Shown: positions 47,518 to 64,000 of the stretch, piece by piece
Layout: each line of letters begins with the position of its first letter
Position numbering within the stretch: the stretch's first letter is position 1
DNA from: a virus
Lineage: Duplodnaviria > Heunggongvirae > Uroviricota > Caudoviricetes
Length of the DNA stretch: 64,000 bases
IMG/VR virus record: IMGVR_UViG_3300018475_000004
Reading direction: 5' to 3' (one strand)
The notes under the pieces: model-generated
Seen by the model: the letters and a program-made list of their open reading frames with translations, nothing else
Databases searched by the model: none
What the model was told of the DNA's origin: nothing
Made by a program: the position numbers and the translations under genes

Positions 47518-47889
47518 ATGAACAAGCCTCATTTTGATACTCCTACTCAGGTCATGTTCCATGACATTGATGAACCCGGCTCTTGGATTACCGGTATCGC
47601 TTTTGGCGACACTATCATCTGCGCCTGTTGCGGCGGTGTTTATGATATCGACGAGGTCTGCGAGCTGTCCGAGGGTTACGTGGACCAGGCTATCTATCCC
47701 TATGGCACCTGGGTTGATCTCTCCGAAGAAATCTTCGGTGGTGAGTTCCCCAAGGGTTTGGTCACTACTGGCGAGGGCGCTAATGAACGCATCGTAGAAG
47801 AGAGTTTCCTGGAATCTAAGGAATATGAGCAGCATTCCTTTATTTTGGAAGAAGAGGAAGAGACTCAGGCAAGAGCCTCTGAAATCTAA
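47518..47889 (+). CDS. Acidic hypothetical protein
   Basis: 123 aa, CACCG motif, own promoter. Confidence 0.65.
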   Translation: MNKPHFDTPTQVMFHDIDEPGSWITGIAFGDTIICACCGGVYDIDEVCELSEGYVDQAIYPYGTWVDLSEEIFGGEFPKGLVTTGEGANERIVEESFLESKEYEQHSFILEEEEETQARASEI

Positions 47890-48001
47890 GTCAAAAATTC
47901 TTTTTGACTTTCAAAAAAAAATATGTTATAATATATATGTAAGGTAAAGAAAGCGAAATGCACGGTTCACTTTCTTTCTCCATACACAACCTTTTCCATA
48001 A

Positions 48002-48184
48002 AAGACGGTAACAGCGATTCAAAGATTAGCTTGTGGTGCCGCAGGTCGTTGGTTCGAGTCCAACCACCCTTCCCTCACCTGGCAAGGTGGCGTAGGTGAC
48101 TACTAAGGGGAACTTCGGTTCCCTGATATGAAGGGTGTAGCTTAGATTGGTAGAGCAGCGTAAGATCGAAAAAACTCCGTCTTG
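48002..48184 (+). ncRNA. ACAGCAA cassette 1 carrying circularly permuted tRNA-His(GTG)
   Basis: AAGACGG/CCGTCTT stem; tRNA 3' part 48029-48072 precedes 5' part 48130-48160. Confidence 0.85.
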
Positions 48185-48418
48185 AAGCTAAGTAAATATA
48201 ACATATTTGATTTTCAAAAAAAAATATGTTATAATATATATGTAAGGTAAAGGAAATACAAAGAGTATCCCTTTGTGAAGTGCCCAGGCCGTCTATCAGC
48301 GAAGTCCTGGGGCGAGGAACATCGGCAGAAAAATGTATTTTGAGAACCTCTCACGGAATGGGAAGAATAGCTGATAGTATATCGACTCACTGTCATGTTC
48401 TCACCTTACAACACATAT

Positions 48419-50208: not shown

Positions 50209-50483
50209 GATGGTAAGCCACCAGGAGAAGGAAAACCAGAAAAAACTGGAAATACCGGGGCGAAACCTTTGCCTAAACTGGGCTAAGAAATACAGGTTGC
50301 GTGCGGCCGCAGCACGAGTAAGGGACGTAAAGCGGTGGTTTAAGAGTGTTACCTATAACCAACCGGGCGAGAAAAACAAATGAGCAGGCCCGTTAAAATG
50401 ATAGTCGCGAATATCATCTGCAATCCTGGGCTGGTCGAAAGACCCTGGTCCACCCAAAGGCGCTGGCAACCGGCGCCACATAT

Positions 50484-51657: not shown

Positions 51658-51776
51658 AAGACACTCACAGCAAATAGCTTTGTAGCGAGATTAGCTCAGA
51701 TGGGTGAGCAATTGTCTGATAAACAATAGGTCGTTGGTTCGAGTCCAACATTTTGCAAAACAAACAATGTGTCTTG
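51658..51776 (+). ncRNA. ACAGCAA cassette 2 carrying whole tRNA-Ile(GAT) lacking CCA (51685-51757)
   Basis: AAGACAC/GTGTCTT stem encloses unpermuted cloverleaf. Confidence 0.85.
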
Positions 51777-54355: not shown

Positions 54356-54433
54356 GGTGGGTGTAGCTTAGTTGGTTAAAGCGCCAGATTGTGGCTCTGG
54401 AGATCGCCAGTTCGAGTCTGGTCACTCACCCCA
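54356..54433 (+). tRNA. tRNA-His(GTG)
   Basis: 8-bp acceptor with G-1:C73, CCA. Confidence 0.92.
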
Positions 54434-54512
54434 TAGACAGACACAGCAAATATATTTTTTACTAAAAACGCTTATTTTGGGTTTAAGAAATGTTAAAGTA
54501 ATTTCTGTCTAG
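54434..54512 (+). ncRNA. ACAGCAA cassette 3, cargo includes Pro(TGG)-like anticodon stem-loop
   Basis: TAGACAG/CTGTCTA stem; CTTAT-TTTGGGT-TTAAG. Confidence 0.75.
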
Positions 54513-55172: not shown

Positions 55173-55291
55173 AAGGCAGATACAGCAAATAACTTTTTTC
55201 AAGTTCTATAGTCTATTGGATATGACATTTTCCTTCCACGAAAAAGAGACGGGTTCAATTCCCGTTAGAATCAGAAAAATTACCTGCCTTG
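55173..55291 (+). ncRNA. ACAGCAA cassette 4 carrying degenerate whole tRNA-Gly(TCC)
   Basis: AAGGCAG/CTGCCTT stem; TTTTC-CTTCCAC-GAAAA arm, GGTTCAATTCC T loop, no CCA. Confidence 0.8.
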
Positions 55292-55296
55292 AATAT

Positions 55297-55373
55297 GCTC
55301 CAGTAGCTCAGATGGTTAGAGTACACGACTGATAATCGTGAGGTCACTGGTTCGATCCCAGTCTGGAGCACCA
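55297..55373 (+). tRNA. tRNA-Ile(GAT)
   Basis: Cloverleaf with CCA. Confidence 0.92.
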
Positions 55374-55810: not shown

Positions 55811-55947
55811 TAGACACACACAGCAAATTTATTCTATTAAGAATAATATCGGTTCGAGTCCGATACCAACCGCCCTTAGGTTAGTTTGAGAAATTGGTAA
55901 ACTCACTTGTCTGTAAAACAAGCAAATGTCTTAATTAATGTGTCTAG
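55811..55947 (+). ncRNA. ACAGCAA cassette 5 carrying circularly permuted tRNA-Tyr(GTA)
   Basis: TAGACAC/GTGTCTA stem; variable/T arm and ACCAACC precede GGTTAGT, D arm and CTTGT-CTGTAAA-ACAAG. Confidence 0.8.
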
Positions 55948-56487: not shown

Positions 56488-56597
56488 AAGGCACATACAG
56501 CAATTACACATTCTATGTGTTGTGGGTTCAAGTCCCATTTTTCTAGCCATTTTAGAAAATAGTACAATCGGTAGTACAATAGACTTCAAGTGCCTTG
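56488..56597 (+). ncRNA. ACAGCAA cassette 6 carrying circularly permuted tRNA with probable TCA anticodon
   Basis: AAGGCAC/GTGCCTT stem; TCTAT..T arm..TTTTCTA-G-CCA then TAGAAAA, D arm, ATAGA-CTTCAA. Confidence 0.8.
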
Positions 56598-56604
56598 TTT
56601 ATAT

Positions 56605-56708: not shown

Positions 56709-56772
56709 AAGACTCTAACAGCAATTTATTTTGGAACAACCTTTTAACTTGTCTACCAGAAACTGAGTCTTG
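56709..56772 (+). ncRNA. ACAGCAA cassette 7, cargo Lys(TTT)-like anticodon stem-loop
   Basis: AAGACTC/GAGTCTT stem; ACAAC-CTTTTAA-CTTGT. Confidence 0.8.
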
Positions 56773-57198: not shown

Positions 57199-57277
57199 AA
57201 GGCTCAAACAGCAATTCTTATTCATAAAATTTGCGACTGCAACTCGCTCCAACTGTATGAGAAAAAAGTGAGCCTTG
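57199..57277 (+). ncRNA. ACAGCAA cassette 8, cargo Cys(GCA) anticodon stem-loop
   Basis: AAGGCTC/GAGCCTT stem; GCGA-CTGCAAC-TCGC on TCATA/TATGA stem. Confidence 0.82.
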
Positions 57278-57279
57278 AA

Positions 57280-57965
57280 GCACTCCTGACAGAAACCCTC
57301 CGGTGAATAACCCTGGTGAGTGCGATTTCGACTAATGACTGTCATGAACCTTGATAAGTTTGCAACTCGGTGAAGAACGAATACCATCGTGCCGAGATCC
57401 TCATCCTGCCTGTGGGTACCAGGAGTCCGAAAAGCAATCTTACCGACGATAGCCGGTAATAGGTAGATTCTCTTGTGGTGACATAAGAGAGCCGCCTCCA
57501 AAGGGAGGGCCTGGATGGAGAGGAGTGCAAAGATAACCGCAATCAAAAATACCGTCTTATCGCTTCCGCAATAGACGCCCCCGTGGGGAATAAGCCTTGT
57601 TAGGGATTAGCTGGTGACTGTTCCAGACCAAGGTACACCAATAAGGAAGTCTGCGTTGATGTCGGAGTAATCCGGCTATAAGGTAAGGTCAGGGTACGAG
57701 TAGCTCTATCGCAACGACGAGAAGAAAGATTGGGCTGTTTAGATAGTATGGTTTAATAGACTTAAACAATTCTGAATGGCGAGTGAAAGTTAGAGGCAAT
57801 CAGTCCTCTGCGGGATAGGGTAGGAAAGGCCGCCTCTGGTGTGTCAGAACTACTGGGGCAAGAAGCTTAGGGTCGCTCCCGAAGGCTCAGACTTGTCTCC
57901 CCGGTGATTGAATATGGTTGAAGGTTATAGGGAGTATGACGAAGGTCAGCAAACTTATCAGGTTT
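57280..57965 (+). ncRNA. Probable GOLLD RNA (boundaries approximate)
   Basis: About 690 nt ORF-free structured region between tRNAs; 3' blocks GTAGCTCTATCGCAA, GAATGGCGAGTGAAAGTT..AATCAGTC, GGGTCGCTCCC..GGCTCAGAC, GAATA..GAAGGT..AGTATG..AAGGTC resemble the GOLLD 3' core as I recall it. Confidence 0.68.
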
Positions 57966-57973
57966 ATAAATTT

Positions 57974-59771: not shown

Positions 59772-59838
59772 AAGGCTCACACAGCAACTAATTTTATGAT
59801 GCAGACTTAAAATCCGTTTATCAGAAAAGCGAGCCTTG
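59772..59838 (+). ncRNA. ACAGCAA cassette 9, cargo Leu(TAA)-like anticodon stem-loop
   Basis: AAGGCTC/GAGCCTT stem; GCAGA-CTTAAAA-TCCGT on TGAT/ATCA stem. Confidence 0.8.
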
Positions 59839-61875: not shown

Positions 61876-62012
61876 AAGGCACATACAGCAATACATTTTT
61901 CAAAATTTAAGGCTGTCAACCCGTAGGCTGCAGGTTCGAGTCCTGTCCCCGTCTCCACGGCGGGGTAGCTCAAGTGGTAGAGCAACGTAAAACGATTTTG
62001 TGATGTGTCTTG
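61876..62012 (+). ncRNA. ACAGCAA cassette 10 carrying circularly permuted tRNA-Asp(GTC)
   Basis: AAGGCAC/GTGTCTT stem; 3' part 61911-61957 ending CCA precedes 5' part 61959-61987. Confidence 0.88.
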
Positions 62013-62023
62013 ATTTATTATAC

Positions 62024-62098
62024 TGCGGTGTCGTTCAAAGGTCAGGACAGGGGTCTCTAAAACCTCGGATGTGAGTTCGATTCTCACCGCCGCTGCCA
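62024..62098 (+). tRNA. Amber suppressor tRNA (anticodon CTA), probably Gln
   Basis: GGGGT-CTCTAAA-ACCTC arm, U1:U72 mismatch, G2-C71, G73, CCA. Confidence 0.9.
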
Positions 62099-62166: not shown

Positions 62167-62261
62167 AAGGCTCTTACAGCAAGTCTTAAACTTGGATAAT
62201 AAAATTTTTTCTGTACAAAATTTTTAGTAGGTTCGAGTCCTACAAACTATCAAGAGCCTTG
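62167..62261 (+). ncRNA. ACAGCAA cassette 11, cargo D-armless tRNA-like element (GTA loop plus T arm)
   Basis: AAGGCTC/GAGCCTT stem; CTGTACA loop; GTAGG-TTCGAGT-CCTAC. Confidence 0.75.
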
Positions 62262-63048: not shown

Positions 63049-63218
63049 GAGAGCCATACAGCAAACAACTTTGCATAATGCAAAATCGCTACATCTGGTA
63101 GCTCTATCGTATTTTATCAAATACAATTTTAATGATCAAGAAAGAAGAATGGTTTTTTACTAAAACTCTTTCGGTTCTCTCAAAGTAATTTTATTAAGTC
63201 TTGGTGGTGAGGCTCTCG
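63049..63218 (+). ncRNA. ACAGCAA cassette 12, about 150-nt multi-hairpin cargo
   Basis: GAGAGCC-AT-ACAGCAA ... GGCTCTC-G. Confidence 0.72.
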
Positions 63219-63415: not shown

Positions 63416-63492
63416 GCGCCGGTAGCTCAGTCGGTAGCAGCACCTGCCTTTTAAGCAGGGGGTCGTGGGTTCGAGCCCCGCCCGGCGCACCA
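63416..63492 (+). tRNA. tRNA-Lys(TTT)
   Basis: Cloverleaf with CCA. Confidence 0.9.
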
Positions 63493-64000
63493 ACCGGTTC
63501 TGCTTTTGCGCACGGGAGAAATTCCTCAGAACCGCCTTTTGGGACGAGTAAGGTTTTACAGTAGGGACTAAGTGGCAATCGGGTGTCTAGAAATTAGACC
63601 CGACCTAAGCCCTAAGATTAGCCTTTCTCGTTGTTTTTATCATATTTGATTTTTATAAAAAAATATGATATAATATTTATGTAAGATAAAGGAAGAAACA
63701 AATTACTGATTTCTTTACTGCTTACCGGCACTTAGCCATCCGACTGCCGTAAAATAGAGATGACCAAGCAATAAGTATTGCCGTTGTGAGTGAGGACGAC
63801 CGAGAAACTCACCAAGAGTAAACTTGACAATAAGAAAGCAAAGGGTAGCGCGATATTGTGCTAGAGTGCAGAAGGACAGTCCCGGCATAAAGCTAATGTT
63901 GGGTGACAGGCCGCTTGAGGTTGCACTGGAGAGGCGTCCGATTATGTGCTTATTGTAAAAATCCAAGAGGTTCAGCTGGCTTCTTGATTTATCCTTTTGG

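What the first reader, a model, noticed from the sequence alone, without database searches (positions are those of the whole stretch)
48002..48184. Circularly permuted tRNA-His(GUG) with the same 29/30 split and an intact G-1:C73 identity pair
Seen: 3' part GC-TTGTGGT-GCCGC-AGGTC-GTTGG-TTCGAGT-CCAAC-CACCCTTC (48029-48072), a 57-nt hairpin linker with a UUCG loop, then 5' part GAAGGGTG-TA-GCTT-AGATTGGT-AGAGC-A-GCG (48130-48160). Joining GCG to GC restores GCGGC/GCCGC. The 8-bp acceptor is the His hallmark, as in the intact copy at 54356. Both His and Asp 5' parts are followed by TAA and both 3' parts are preceded by TA or TAA. Inference: the identical breakpoint in two unrelated tRNAs argues for a position-specific mechanism rather than random rearrangement.
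Basis: partly seen in the sequence, partly recalled or inferred. Interest (0 to 1): 0.92.

Follow-up and report, generated by a model that had tools for sequence, protein, structure and literature searches.

The report
Phage Y-like RNA mimicking tRNA-His
The back-to-front tRNA-His is real, but it is most likely not a gene for a working tRNA: it looks like the tRNA-shaped part of a small phage RNA whose conserved "handle" probably docks on a phage relative of the Ro60 RNA-binding protein, a pairing common in phages that I could not find described.

Summary
The sequence is as described. At 48029-48160 the 3' part of a tRNA-His (G30 onward, T arm, CACCCTT, C73) precedes its 5' part (G-1, AAGGGTG, D arm, G27-G29). 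ARAGORN calls the rejoined halves tRNA-His(GUG).

It is not a free-standing permuted tRNA gene. It is the cargo of one of 11 (plus 2 divergent) cassettes in this phage's tRNA array. Each has a 7-bp closing stem, two free bases, ACAGCRA and a final G.

The cassette occurs in many phages, on the same strand as, and often beside, a DUF2828/DUF7788 gene. That gene is in 31 of 33 cassette-bearing records but only 1.4% of cultured phage records, and its model folds like Ro60. The layout (stem, T arm, acceptor hairpin, D arm, stem) is that of bacterial YrlA Y RNAs, which the element hits below Rfam's threshold.

An ortholog in a roughly 200-kb relative keeps the acceptor pairing through compensatory changes and carries C73-CCA. 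The 29/30 junction recurs elsewhere, but so do at least three other junction types. No splicing endonuclease or RNA ligase was found.

Best reading: a Y-RNA-like tRNA-His mimic docked on a phage Ro60-like protein, possibly cut by RNase P. This scan met the same family before on other genomes.

The parts
47904..47932 (+). Own promoter: TTGACT, 17 nt, TATAAT, with TG before the second hexamer
   Evidence: 11 of 12 matches. One of 12 near-identical promoters in the array. Conserved in the ortholog L175.
47940..48001 (+). Leader of about 60 nt with a hairpin, between the likely transcript start and the handle
   Evidence: Fold. Conserved in L175. Function unknown. It means the closing stem is not at the primary 5' end here.
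48002..48008 (+). 5' strand of the 7-bp closing stem (AAGACGG)
   Evidence: Pairs perfectly with 48177-48183. This stem covaries across copies and phages.
48011..48017 (+). Handle core ACAGCGA (family consensus ACAGCAA), two bases after the stem
   Evidence: 11 matches of the handle pattern, all on the + strand, about 1 expected. Invariant across phages of seven host genera.
48024..48027 (+). 5' strand of a short flank helix (GATT) next to the junction
   Evidence: Pairs with GATC at 48164-48167. The ortholog has TGACG/TGTCA at the same place, so the helix is kept with a different sequence (by inspection).
48029..48042 (+). Anticodon-arm part: G30-C31, loop TTGTGGT (GTG at 48033-48035), G39-C40, then C41-G42-C43
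   Evidence: Identical in L175.
48048..48064 (+). T arm (GTTGG TTCGAGT CCAAC)
48065..48072 (+). 3' acceptor strand CACCCTT plus C73
   Evidence: Compensatory changes against L175. Followed by CC-T here and by CCA in L175.
48075..48129 (+). Insert in the acceptor loop: three hairpins (48075-48090 loop GGCA, 48092-48103 loop GTGA, 48107-48124 loop TTCG), then GATAT, the leader that precedes the tRNAs examined in this array
   Evidence: 96% identical over 53 nt in a Gly(UCC)-type cassette of another phage, where it follows GCCA. One compensatory A-U to C-G change in the third hairpin in L175. No Rfam match.
48130..48137 (+). G-1 and 5' acceptor strand AAGGGTG
48140..48156 (+). D arm (GCTT AGATTGGTA GAGC)
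48158..48160 (+). G27-C28-G29, pairing with C41-G42-C43 (48040-48042) across the junction
   Evidence: Position 27:43 is G-C here, A-U in the Asp- and Pro-type relatives and C-G in the Gly-type relatives (by inspection).
48164..48167 (+). 3' strand of the flank helix (GATC)
   Evidence: See 48024-48027.
48177..48184 (+). 3' strand of the closing stem (CCGTCTT) and the conserved G
61876..62012 (+). Sister cassette with an Asp(GUC)-type permuted tRNA look-alike, also split 29/30; acceptor loop TCCAC
56488..56597 (+). Sister cassette, permuted tRNA look-alike with the handle in place of the anticodon loop; acceptor loop GCCATTT
55811..55947 (+). Sister cassette, permuted look-alike broken after a Tyr(GUA)-type anticodon arm
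51658..51776 (+). Sister cassette enclosing an Ile(GAU) look-alike in normal order, without CCA
55173..55291 (+). Sister cassette enclosing a Gly(UCC) look-alike in normal order, without CCA
62167..62261 (+). Sister cassette with hairpins and a T arm only
54434..54512 (+). Short sister cassette (hairpin cargo)
56709..56772 (+). Short sister cassette (hairpin cargo)
57199..57277 (+). Short sister cassette (loop CTGCAAC), just upstream of the ROOL RNA
59772..59838 (+). Short sister cassette (hairpin cargo)

Best explanation
The element at 48002-48184 is a gene for a small non-coding RNA of the Y-RNA type, not a gene for a translating tRNA. It is transcribed from its own promoter. Its two ends pair in a 7-bp stem that, with the adjoining single-stranded ACAGCGA and the closing G, forms a handle shared by at least 11 RNAs of this phage and by many other phages. 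I infer that this handle is the docking site of the phage's Ro60-like ring protein (DUF2828/DUF7788, 503 aa, encoded 4.6 kb past the end of the window on the same strand). The rest of the RNA is a complete tRNA-His body drawn in YrlA order: anticodon-arm remnant, T arm, acceptor stem closed by a loop, D arm. The particle would thus display a tRNA-His look-alike. The acceptor loop keeps C73-CC (C73-CCA in the ortholog), a conserved 55-nt three-hairpin insert and the GATAT leader seen before the tRNAs examined in this array. So a second inferred step is that RNase P cuts before G-1, as it does in Mycobacterium smegmatis YrlA, leaving a two-piece RNA held together by the acceptor stem and the handle. 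Shown: the fold, the covariation, the family, and its co-occurrence and co-orientation with the Ro60-like gene. Inferred: binding, RNase P cleavage, and the purpose. By analogy with Ro/Y RNA particles, and with the reported anti-defence role of the Bas63 homolog, the purpose would be to handle, or act as decoy for, damage to tRNA during infection.
For: 1. The handle is real and repeated. The pattern has 11 hits, all on one strand, with about 1 expected. Each hit has a perfect 7-nt partner 56-175 nt downstream, with different sequences.
2. Tests that did not presuppose the stem. Of 44 IMG/VR hits found with the 5' handle plus a T loop, 33 have the 7-bp partner plus G, against 1 of 44 in a control window. 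Of 88 hits, 71 pair at both unconstrained stem positions, where about 14% is expected by chance.
3. RNAalifold on 36 permuted-class members predicts the closing stem, T arm, acceptor hairpin and D stem. 19 of 23 pairs show compensatory changes.
4. Rfam YrlA matches three cassettes of the window end to end at 43.7, 40.8 and 31.7 bits.
5. Partner protein. A family of about 510 aa is the commonest neighbour of the cassette. It carries Pfam DUF2828 and DUF7788 and matches PHROG 850 'RNA-binding protein'. It is present once in 31 of 33 cassette-bearing records and in 13 of 13 that are at least 90% complete, against 710 of 50,697 cultured phage records. In 31 loci holding both, the nearest cassette is always on the gene's strand, at a median of 186 nt.
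6. The AlphaFold model (pLDDT 79) has Ro60/Rsr/TROVE structures as its 13 best PDB matches, E 4e-9 to 6e-6, including Thermus phage Ro60. A DxSxS MIDAS motif is invariant.
7. In seven of nine cultured phages examined (Bacillus, Listeria, Salmonella Felix O1, Mycobacterium, Campylobacter, Staphylococcus, Enterococcus), cassettes lie on the gene's strand within the few kb examined, in several directly abutting the gene. The stem sequences differ while ACAGCAA is invariant.
8. The ortholog L175 keeps the acceptor stem and the third insert hairpin by compensatory changes. Its record has 20 handles on one strand and the DUF7788 gene.
9. Precedent: YrlA RNAs are permuted tRNA mimics encoded by Ro60 genes, and M. 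smegmatis YrlA is cut by RNase P and receives CCA (PMC4201824). A phage Ro60 binds phage Y-like RNAs (PMC12135203). Bas63 gp130, which the preprint's authors describe as structurally similar to Ro60 and as lying directly upstream of that phage's tRNA genes, counters a defence system, and they guessed that some of its 'tRNAs' are Y RNAs (10.1101/2024.10.10.617714).
Against: There is no binding, expression or end-mapping data for this RNA. The RNA contigs laid on the region gave no verdict. The YrlA score is below Rfam's threshold of 69 bits, and the Rsr-binding motif GNCGAAN0-1G is absent. The protein is not recognised by Pfam TROVE. The Ro60-like gene is about 20 kb from this particular cassette, although about 5 kb from the last cassette of the array. 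This copy has a 60-nt leader before the handle, so a 5' processing step must be assumed. A full His identity set, CCA in the ortholog and an RNase P-type leader are more than a mere docking RNA needs, and they leave room for a role that involves charging or maturation.
Confidence: 0.6

Rival explanations
1. It is a true circularly permuted tRNA-His gene. The transcript is cut after G29 and before G30, the ends are ligated (through a circular intermediate or after removal of the linker), and RNase P and 3' processing open the acceptor end, giving a working tRNA-His.
For: The rejoined halves give a perfect tRNA-His with G-1:C73. Pairing between the halves is kept by compensatory changes, and the ortholog encodes C73-CCA. 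The 29/30 junction recurs in several phages with different anticodons. Some phages with the Ro60-like gene carry RtcB or an RNA ligase nearby.
Against: There is no bulge-helix-bulge at the junction; the flanks form a plain helix. No splicing endonuclease, RtcB or Rnl family was found in the held record. RtcB is in 1 of 33 cassette-bearing records and 0 of 13 complete ones. An ordinary CCA-bearing tRNA-His, two tRNA-Asp, a tRNA-Tyr and others already cover the same anticodons. Sister cassettes carry cargo that can never become a tRNA, such as a hairpin only, or closed 3-5-nt acceptor loops. No known bacterial or phage pathway does this.
Confidence: 0.07
2. The cassette is a processing or stabilising device of the tRNA array itself, for example a stem recognised by a host RNase or one that protects transcript ends. 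It would work without the Ro60-like protein, and the tRNA-like cargo would be a by-product of tandem tRNA duplication.
For: Eight of the 11 cassettes sit 5-12 nt upstream of a genuine tRNA, and several start at the transcription start. NCCA plus an AT-rich spacer in 8 of 38 acceptor loops looks like the joint of two tandem tRNA genes.
Against: The tie to the DUF2828 gene is very strong: 31 of 33 records against 1.4%, always the same strand, often within 100 nt, and also in phages where the cassettes stand by the gene and not in a tRNA array. The single-stranded ACAGCAA is invariant, which fits a protein site better than an RNase III-type stem.
Confidence: 0.1
3. The RNA acts mainly as a free decoy for host factors that read tRNA-His (an anticodon nuclease of a defence system, HisRS, or the queuosine-inserting enzyme that reads U33-G34-U35). 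The Ro60-like protein would only stabilise it.
For: The commonest cargo in the family is an anticodon-type hairpin with a 7-nt loop. Excluding 45 T-loop hits, 63 of 224 cassettes have one; shuffled cargo gives 22 loops of any kind, so this control is only rough. His, Asp and Tyr types here all carry U-G-U. The Bas63 homolog of the protein counters a defence system (10.1101/2024.10.10.617714).
Against: No target is known. The anticodons displayed are very diverse. The census is biased by how the loci were fetched. This reading overlaps with, rather than excludes, the best explanation.
Confidence: 0.12
4. It is a decaying rearranged tRNA pseudogene with no function.
For: CCA has decayed to CCT in this copy. 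An intact tRNA-His exists in the array.
Against: It has its own strong promoter. An ortholog shows compensatory changes in three helices and an identical anticodon arm. It belongs to a covarying family spread over many phages.
Confidence: 0.03

Closest known systems
YrlA-type bacterial Y RNAs bound by Rsr/Ro60 (Rfam RF02553; Chen et al. 2014, PMC4201824)
   Same: Both have a closing stem made of the two RNA ends, then T arm, acceptor-like stem closed by a loop, D arm, and a stem in the anticodon-stem position leading back to the handle. Both are encoded on the strand of a Ro60-type gene. YrlA is known in phages as well as bacteria. The M. smegmatis member, with a 7-bp acceptor stem, is cut by RNase P and receives CCA.
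   Different: The handle is different: a 7-bp stem, two bases and ACAGCAA instead of the GNCGAAN0-1G bulged helix. The protein is a DUF2828/DUF7788 family that Pfam TROVE does not detect. The score is below Rfam's threshold. This copy also keeps a full anticodon loop on a three-way junction, a complete His identity set and a 55-nt structured insert in the acceptor loop. The family has many copies per genome with interchangeable cargo.
Thermus phage phiLo Ro60 with Yrl1/Yrl2 (PMC12135203; PDB 9KOP, 9L5Y)
   Same: It is a phage-encoded Ro60-fold protein with small phage RNAs encoded next to it. The structures are among the best matches of the model of this phage's protein (TM about 0.55-0.63).
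   Different: That protein is a recognisable Ro60, and its RNAs carry the CGAA motif. No tRNA-complete cargo or ACAGCAA handle is described there.
Circularly permuted tRNA genes of Cyanidioschyzon merolae, some green algae and Thermofilum pendens (from my own knowledge; reviewed in PMC4090602)
   Same: The 3' half is encoded upstream of the 5' half, and the halves rejoin to a full cloverleaf.
   Different: Those are matured through a bulge-helix-bulge motif by the tRNA splicing endonuclease and a ligase via a circular intermediate, and they supply tRNAs the cell needs. Here there is no such motif, no such enzymes were found, the setting is a bacterial virus, and a normal tRNA-His stands beside it.
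Theta (minimal HDV-like) ribozymes 3' of phage tRNAs (PMC10879173)
   Same: The 55-nt insert also begins right after the 3' end of a tRNA body in a gut phage that recodes TAG.
   Different: No Rfam ribozyme model matches it. I could not draw P2 or P3, and no cytosine follows the last hairpin where the catalytic C should be. Rejected as a member.

Membership tests
Circularly permuted tRNA gene (algal/archaeal type) | 3' half upstream of 5' half; the halves rejoin to a complete cloverleaf | tested here: met
   ARAGORN calls the rejoined parts tRNA-His(gtg), 76 nt.
Circularly permuted tRNA gene (algal/archaeal type) | Bulge-helix-bulge motif formed by leader and trailer around the two processing sites | tested here: not met
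   By inspection. The flanks form an ordinary helix (GATT/GATC, or TTA/TAA abutting the junction). There are no two 3-nt bulges 4 bp apart.
Circularly permuted tRNA gene (algal/archaeal type) | tRNA splicing endonuclease and RNA ligase available | tested here: not met
   PF01974, PF01139, PF09414 and PF09511 gave no match in the 138.8-kb record. Caveats: the record is 67% complete, the host is unknown, and the PF09511 control rang nowhere. RtcB is in 1 of 33 cassette-bearing records.
Circularly permuted tRNA gene (algal/archaeal type) | Joined mature tRNA or circular intermediate exists | not testable with these tools
   Only assembled RNA contigs were available, and none was informative over 48002-48184.
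YrlA Y RNA (Rfam RF02553) | Score at or above Rfam's gathering threshold (69 bits) | tested here: not met
   43.7 bits, E 1.4e-8 locally, full-length match to the model.
YrlA Y RNA (Rfam RF02553) | Order: closing stem, T arm, acceptor-like hairpin, D arm, closing stem | tested here: met
   (consensus fold of 36 relatives with compensatory changes).
YrlA Y RNA (Rfam RF02553) | GNCGAAN0-1G motif in the Ro60-binding stem (PMC4201824) | tested here: not met
   The corresponding place holds ACAGCGA after a 7-bp stem.
YrlA Y RNA (Rfam RF02553) | Encoded within about 4 kb of, and on the strand of, a Ro60 ortholog | tested here: inconclusive
   The strand is the same. The Ro60-like gene is about 20 kb from this copy and about 5 kb from the last cassette. 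In other phages the median distance is 186 nt.
YrlA Y RNA (Rfam RF02553) | Bound by the Ro60 protein | not testable with these tools
   Needs pull-down or gel shift.
Stem + ACAGCAA handle RNAs of phages with a DUF2828 Ro60-like gene (no published description found) | 7-bp closing stem, two bases, ACAGCRA, cargo, complementary strand, G | tested here: met
Stem + ACAGCAA handle RNAs of phages with a DUF2828 Ro60-like gene (no published description found) | A DUF2828/DUF7788 gene in the same genome, on the same strand | tested here: met
   L122:4858-6369 (minus strand of the record, which is the + strand of the window). Family-wide figures.
HDV-like theta ribozyme (for the 55-nt insert) | Nested P1/P2/P3 pseudoknot with a catalytic C at the start of J4/2 | tested here: not met
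   No Rfam hit at E up to 10. Manual threading fails. The consensus fold is three simple hairpins.

The most novel reading that the evidence does not exclude
The element matures into a two-piece, chargeable tRNA-His. RNase P cuts before G-1, the insert is removed and CCA is exposed or repaired, and HisRS, which reads G-1:C73 and the GUG loop, aminoacylates an RNA that is still tethered by its ACAGCAA handle to a Ro60-like ring. That would be an aminoacylatable Y RNA: a particle that presents a live tRNA-His end as bait, sensor or reserve during the fight over tRNAs between phage and host. A still bolder variant is that the handle is then removed and the nick sealed, which would be the first permuted tRNA maturation in a bacterial virus.
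Probability: 0.12. Interest if true: 0.88.

Novelty: new variant of a known kind. Interest (0 to 1): 0.62.

Why it matters
Ro60 and its Y RNAs are an old puzzle, from lupus autoantigen to bacterial RNA decay. This family gives that puzzle a compact, very widespread phage version with a sharply defined RNA handle and swappable tRNA-derived cargo. It offers a first functional lead for DUF2828/DUF7788, found in 1.4% of cultured phage records, including Felix O1, Listeria A511-type, KVP40-type and mycobacteriophages. It also explains unannotated gaps, and possibly some odd 'tRNA' calls, in phage tRNA arrays. It links to a reported anti-defence phenotype of the Bas63 homolog. The His copy studied here is the most tRNA-complete cargo I saw (identity pair, anticodon loop, CCA in the ortholog, RNase P-type leader). 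That makes it the best substrate for asking whether such RNAs are cut, charged or attacked like real tRNAs. For annotation, it warns that 'permuted tRNA genes' in phages are probably Y-type mimics.

Tried and rejected
- Pfam TROVE found nothing in the own record or in 33 cassette-bearing records, apart from one weak hit at E 0.005. The partner protein was found instead by clustering the neighbours.
- blastn of the whole unit against cultured phages matched only the promoter.
- The ORF just upstream (47518-47889) has no relatives in IMG/VR, so synteny could not be followed that way.
- Laying four metatranscriptome runs gave assembled contigs only, mostly 90-99% relatives. No listed piece covers 48002-48184 and no 48160-to-48029 joint is listed. 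No verdict on expression, ends or joining.
- RtcB, tRNA-intron endonuclease, RNA_ligase and T4 Rnl1 families were not found in the held record. The last search had no positive control.
- Recent copy of the resident tRNA-His: rejected. Identity is 69%, no higher than to unrelated tRNAs of the array, apart from a shared 5' stretch (family D16).
- HDV-like/theta, hammerhead and other ribozyme readings of the 55-nt insert: no Rfam match and no workable fold.
- Bulge-helix-bulge at the junction: not found by inspection.
- An exact 24-nt scan for the insert found only three sites in two other contigs, so its spread is narrow or it diverges fast.
- The CGATT/AGATCG pairing given by the single-sequence fold uses bases of the conserved ACAGCGA core and is not kept in the ortholog. 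I prefer GATT/GATC.
Full report
**What is there.** The window is the minus strand of a 138.8-kb IMG/VR phage record estimated to be 67% complete. From 47.3 kb to its end it holds a tRNA array. ARAGORN finds 36 tRNAs, including a CUA suppressor. The array also holds a ROOL RNA, and it is cut into units by a dozen near-identical sigma-70-type promoters.

G30-C31, the loop TTGTGGT, G39-C43, a 5-nt variable loop, the T arm, CACCCTT and C73 lie at 48029-48072. A 57-nt linker follows. Then come G-1, AAGGGTG, TA, the D arm, A26 and G27-G29 at 48130-48160. When the two parts are joined in silico, ARAGORN returns a clean tRNA-His(gtg). It does the same for the Asp-like copy at 61911-61987. In genomic order neither ARAGORN nor Rfam's tRNA model sees the element.

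**The flanks are the key.** Rfam's only notable match to the region is YrlA, the bacterial Y-RNA-like family. It matches end to end over 48020-48188 at 43.7 bits (E 1.4e-8 locally), which is below the curated 69 bits. Two more sub-threshold YrlA matches lie at 61903-62010 and 56488-56599.

YrlA RNAs are themselves permuted tRNA mimics. The RNA ends form a stem that binds Ro60/Rsr, and between them lie a T arm, an acceptor-like stem closed by a loop, and a D arm (PMC4201824).

Looking at the promoter repeats, I saw that several transcripts begin with the same words. The pattern AAGRCNNNNACAGCRA occurs 11 times, all on the + strand and all inside the array, where about one is expected. Each occurrence has a perfect 7-nt complement followed by G, 56-175 nt downstream, and the stem sequences differ: AAGACGG/CCGTCTT, AAGGCAC/GTGCCTT, TAGACAG/CTGTCTA and so on. 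Two more divergent copies lie at 63049 and 63280.

The finding is therefore one member of a cassette family: a 7-bp closing stem, two free bases, ACAGCRA, cargo, the other strand, then G. The cargo varies:
- permuted tRNA look-alikes at 48002, 55811, 56488 and 61876;
- tRNA look-alikes in normal order but without CCA at 51658 and 55173, which ARAGORN had called tRNA-Ile and tRNA-Gly;
- a T arm with hairpins at 62167;
- hairpins alone at 54434, 56709, 57199 and 59772.

Eight of the 11 cassettes stand 5-12 nt before a genuine CCA-bearing tRNA. Several begin at the expected transcription start.

**The family is widespread and its stem is under selection.** Of 88 distinct matches, 71 pair at both stem positions that the pattern left free, where about 14% is expected by chance. 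The ninth and tenth positions pair no more than chance, so the stem is 7 bp. A second scan fixed only the 5' handle and a T loop. 33 of its 44 distinct hits have the 7-nt partner plus G within 260 nt, against 1 of 44 in a control window.

A MAFFT alignment of 36 permuted-class members, folded by RNAalifold without guidance from me, gives the closing stem, T arm, acceptor hairpin and D stem. 19 of 23 pairs are kept through changes on both sides.

**The partner protein.** Pfam TROVE finds nothing in this record or in 33 cassette-bearing records. Clustering all ORFs around the cassettes showed one dominant neighbour, a family of about 510 aa. This record also has it, at L122:4858-6369 on the record's minus strand. 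That is the array's strand, 4.6 kb beyond the window's end.

The protein matches Pfam DUF2828 plus DUF7788 and PHROG 850 'RNA-binding protein' at E 1e-128. DUF7788 is present, once each, in 31 of 33 cassette-bearing records and in all 13 that are at least 90% complete. It is in none of 14 control genomes. By tblastn it is in 710 of 50,697 cultured phage records, or 1.4%. In 31 loci holding both, the nearest cassette is always on the gene's strand. The median distance is 186 nt, and 14 lie within 100 nt.

An AlphaFold model from 16 family members (pLDDT 79, pTM 0.72) has Ro60 structures as its 13 best PDB matches: Xenopus and human Ro60, Deinococcus Rsr and Thermus phage phiLo Ro60, with E from 4e-9 to 6e-6 and TM up to 0.63. 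vWA/MIDAS domains come next, and a DxSxS motif is invariant in the family.

In seven of nine cultured phages I opened, cassettes lie on the gene's strand within the few kb examined; in several they directly abut the gene. The seven are Bacillus Thrax1, Listeria VAfA18, Salmonella Felix O1, Mycobacterium Wigglewiggle, Campylobacter F365, Staphylococcus S-CoN_Ph11 and Enterococcus Ben. Each clade has a different stem sequence, with invariant ACAGCAA and closing G. KVP40 and an Erwinia jumbo phage showed none within 4 kb.

A preprint on Bas63, a phage whose gp130 lies directly upstream of its tRNA genes, notes that gp130 looks like Ro60 and counters the ppl defence system. Its authors guess that some of the 'tRNAs' are Y RNAs (10.1101/2024.10.10.617714). 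I found no paper describing the ACAGCAA RNAs.

Other agents of this scan reached the same reading on other genomes. Their notes led me to look for a Ro60-shaped protein. Every step above was then tested here.

**The His copy in particular.** The linker led to an ortholog. A BLAST of the 57 nt found near-identical copies in two other contigs, and an exact scan found a third site. L175:11245-11560 (minus strand) comes from a record of 402 kb. The 20 handles in that record fall in two blocks about 204 kb apart, and one handle sequence recurs at that spacing, so it looks like two copies of a genome of about 204 kb. It holds the same transcription unit at 89% identity: promoter, leader hairpin, handle, anticodon arm, T arm, insert, G-1 and D arm.

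The differences are telling:
- The acceptor stem changes at 2:71 (A-U to G-C), 6:67 (U-A to C-G) and 5:68 (G-C to G-U).
- The last insert hairpin changes A-U to C-G.
- The short helix next to the junction is GATT/GATC here and TGACG/TGTCA there.
- G-1, C73 and the whole anticodon arm are identical.
- The ortholog reads C73-CCA where this window reads C73-CC-T.

The two halves are therefore kept paired by selection. That record also carries the DUF7788 gene, and all 20 of its handles lie on one strand.

The same insert, with its first 25 nt invariant, sits after GCCA in a Gly(UCC)-type cassette that is also split 29/30 (L047:7560-7775). It folds as three hairpins with GGCA, GUGA and UUCG loops and matches no Rfam family. 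I could not fit an HDV-like or other ribozyme fold to it. What it does is open.

**The breakpoint.** Among 32 parsed permuted-class relatives:
- 14 have all five anticodon-stem pairs made between the two parts, with the handle in place of the anticodon loop. This is the classical YrlA layout.
- Four are split 29/30 with a 2-bp stem and a 7-nt loop left on the 5' side. By eye at least three more join them, with Pro, Gly and Asp loops.
- Two to three are split 28/29.
- Five show no pairing of this kind, and in four of these the break comes after a complete anticodon arm.

So 29/30 is a recurrent way of hanging an anticodon loop and a tRNA body on the handle as a three-way junction. It is not a unique site pointing to a cutting mechanism.

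In 8 of 38 distinct acceptor loops the first four bases are NCCA, where 1 in 64 is expected, followed by an AT-rich run like the leaders of neighbouring tRNAs. This fits an origin from the joint of two tandem tRNA genes. It also fits RNase P cleavage there, which is documented for M. smegmatis YrlA (PMC4201824).

**Against the tRNA-gene reading.**
- The flanks give no bulge-helix-bulge.
- No tRNA-intron endonuclease, RtcB or Rnl-type ligase is in the held record.
- RtcB is in 1 of 33 cassette-bearing records.
- A normal tRNA-His with CCA is at 54357-54433, and the other cargo anticodons are likewise covered.
- Many sister cassettes can never become tRNAs.
- The rejoined sequence is only 69% identical to the resident tRNA-His, so it is an old, maintained element and not a fresh rearrangement.

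**Limits.** Nothing here shows that the RNA exists, where its ends are, or that the protein binds it. The only RNA data were assembled metatranscriptome contigs from animal gut samples, which gave no verdict for this stretch. The held record is incomplete.

**Verdict.** The interpretation needs replacing. This is a Y-RNA-type tRNA-His mimic on a conserved phage handle that travels with a Ro60-like protein. It is a new variant of the Ro60/YrlA kind, with an unusually complete tRNA cargo.

Noticed in passing
window 62024-62098; whole record: There is a suppressor tRNA with anticodon CTA, 12 nt after the Asp-like cassette. Reading TAG as an amino acid lengthens the longest frames of the record (largest 2173 aa to 3129 aa), which fits TAG recoding in part of the genome.
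   Followed up: partly
window 57342-57967: A full-length ROOL RNA (323 bits) lies directly after a minimal cassette (57199-57277). Its region has by far the highest depth in three of four RNA runs.
   Followed up: no
window 63543-63632 (bin 63444-64000): There is a partial match to the 3' part of OLE RNA (52.9 bits, just over threshold) at the end of the array. RNA-contig depth there is as high as over ROOL. It may be part of a larger structured RNA that runs past the window's end.
   Followed up: no
window 48075-48129; L175:11329-11384; L047:7665-7719: A 53-55-nt insert of three tetraloop hairpins, with its first 25 nt invariant, sits between the NCC(A) end and the 5' acceptor strand. It occurs in both His-type and Gly-type cassettes of different phages. 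No known RNA family matches and its function is unexplained.
   Followed up: partly
window 51685-51757 and 55202-55273: Two 'tRNAs' called by ARAGORN and Rfam (Ile-GAT, Gly-TCC) lie inside cassettes and lack an encoded CCA. CCA-bearing copies of the same anticodons lie at 55297 and 62855. They are probably cassette cargo rather than working tRNAs.
   Followed up: partly
window 48244-48418: The next unit has a leader of about 170 nt before tRNA-Asn. Within it, GGCCGTC-TA-TCAGCGA resembles a handle whose complement lies in the 5' acceptor strand of tRNA-Asn itself. RNA contigs of relatives cover this leader.
   Followed up: no
window 50427-50462: There is a match to the DUF3800-XI RNA motif (47.6 bits, above threshold) between two tRNA-Glu genes.
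   Followed up: no
window 13000-35000: Over about 22 kb there is no frame longer than about 270 aa under table 11. Many overlapping short frames lie on both strands, G+C is higher and A exceeds T. Reading TAG through gives minus-strand frames of up to 438 aa, so this is probably the TAG-rich late module.
   Followed up: partly
L122:6492-8881 (record coordinates, just past the window's end): An EcoRI-type adenine methylase and a GmrSD-N/HNH endonuclease gene lie between the end of the tRNA array and the Ro60-like gene. An HNH or homing-endonuclease-like gene follows the Ro60-like gene.
   Followed up: no
224 cassettes from IMG/VR loci: Among cassettes whose cargo has a canonical 7-nt anticodon-type loop, the commonest triplet is TTT (Lys, 13), then CAA (8, partly T-loop look-alikes) and GCA (Cys, 7). 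The sample is biased by how the loci were fetched.
   Followed up: partly
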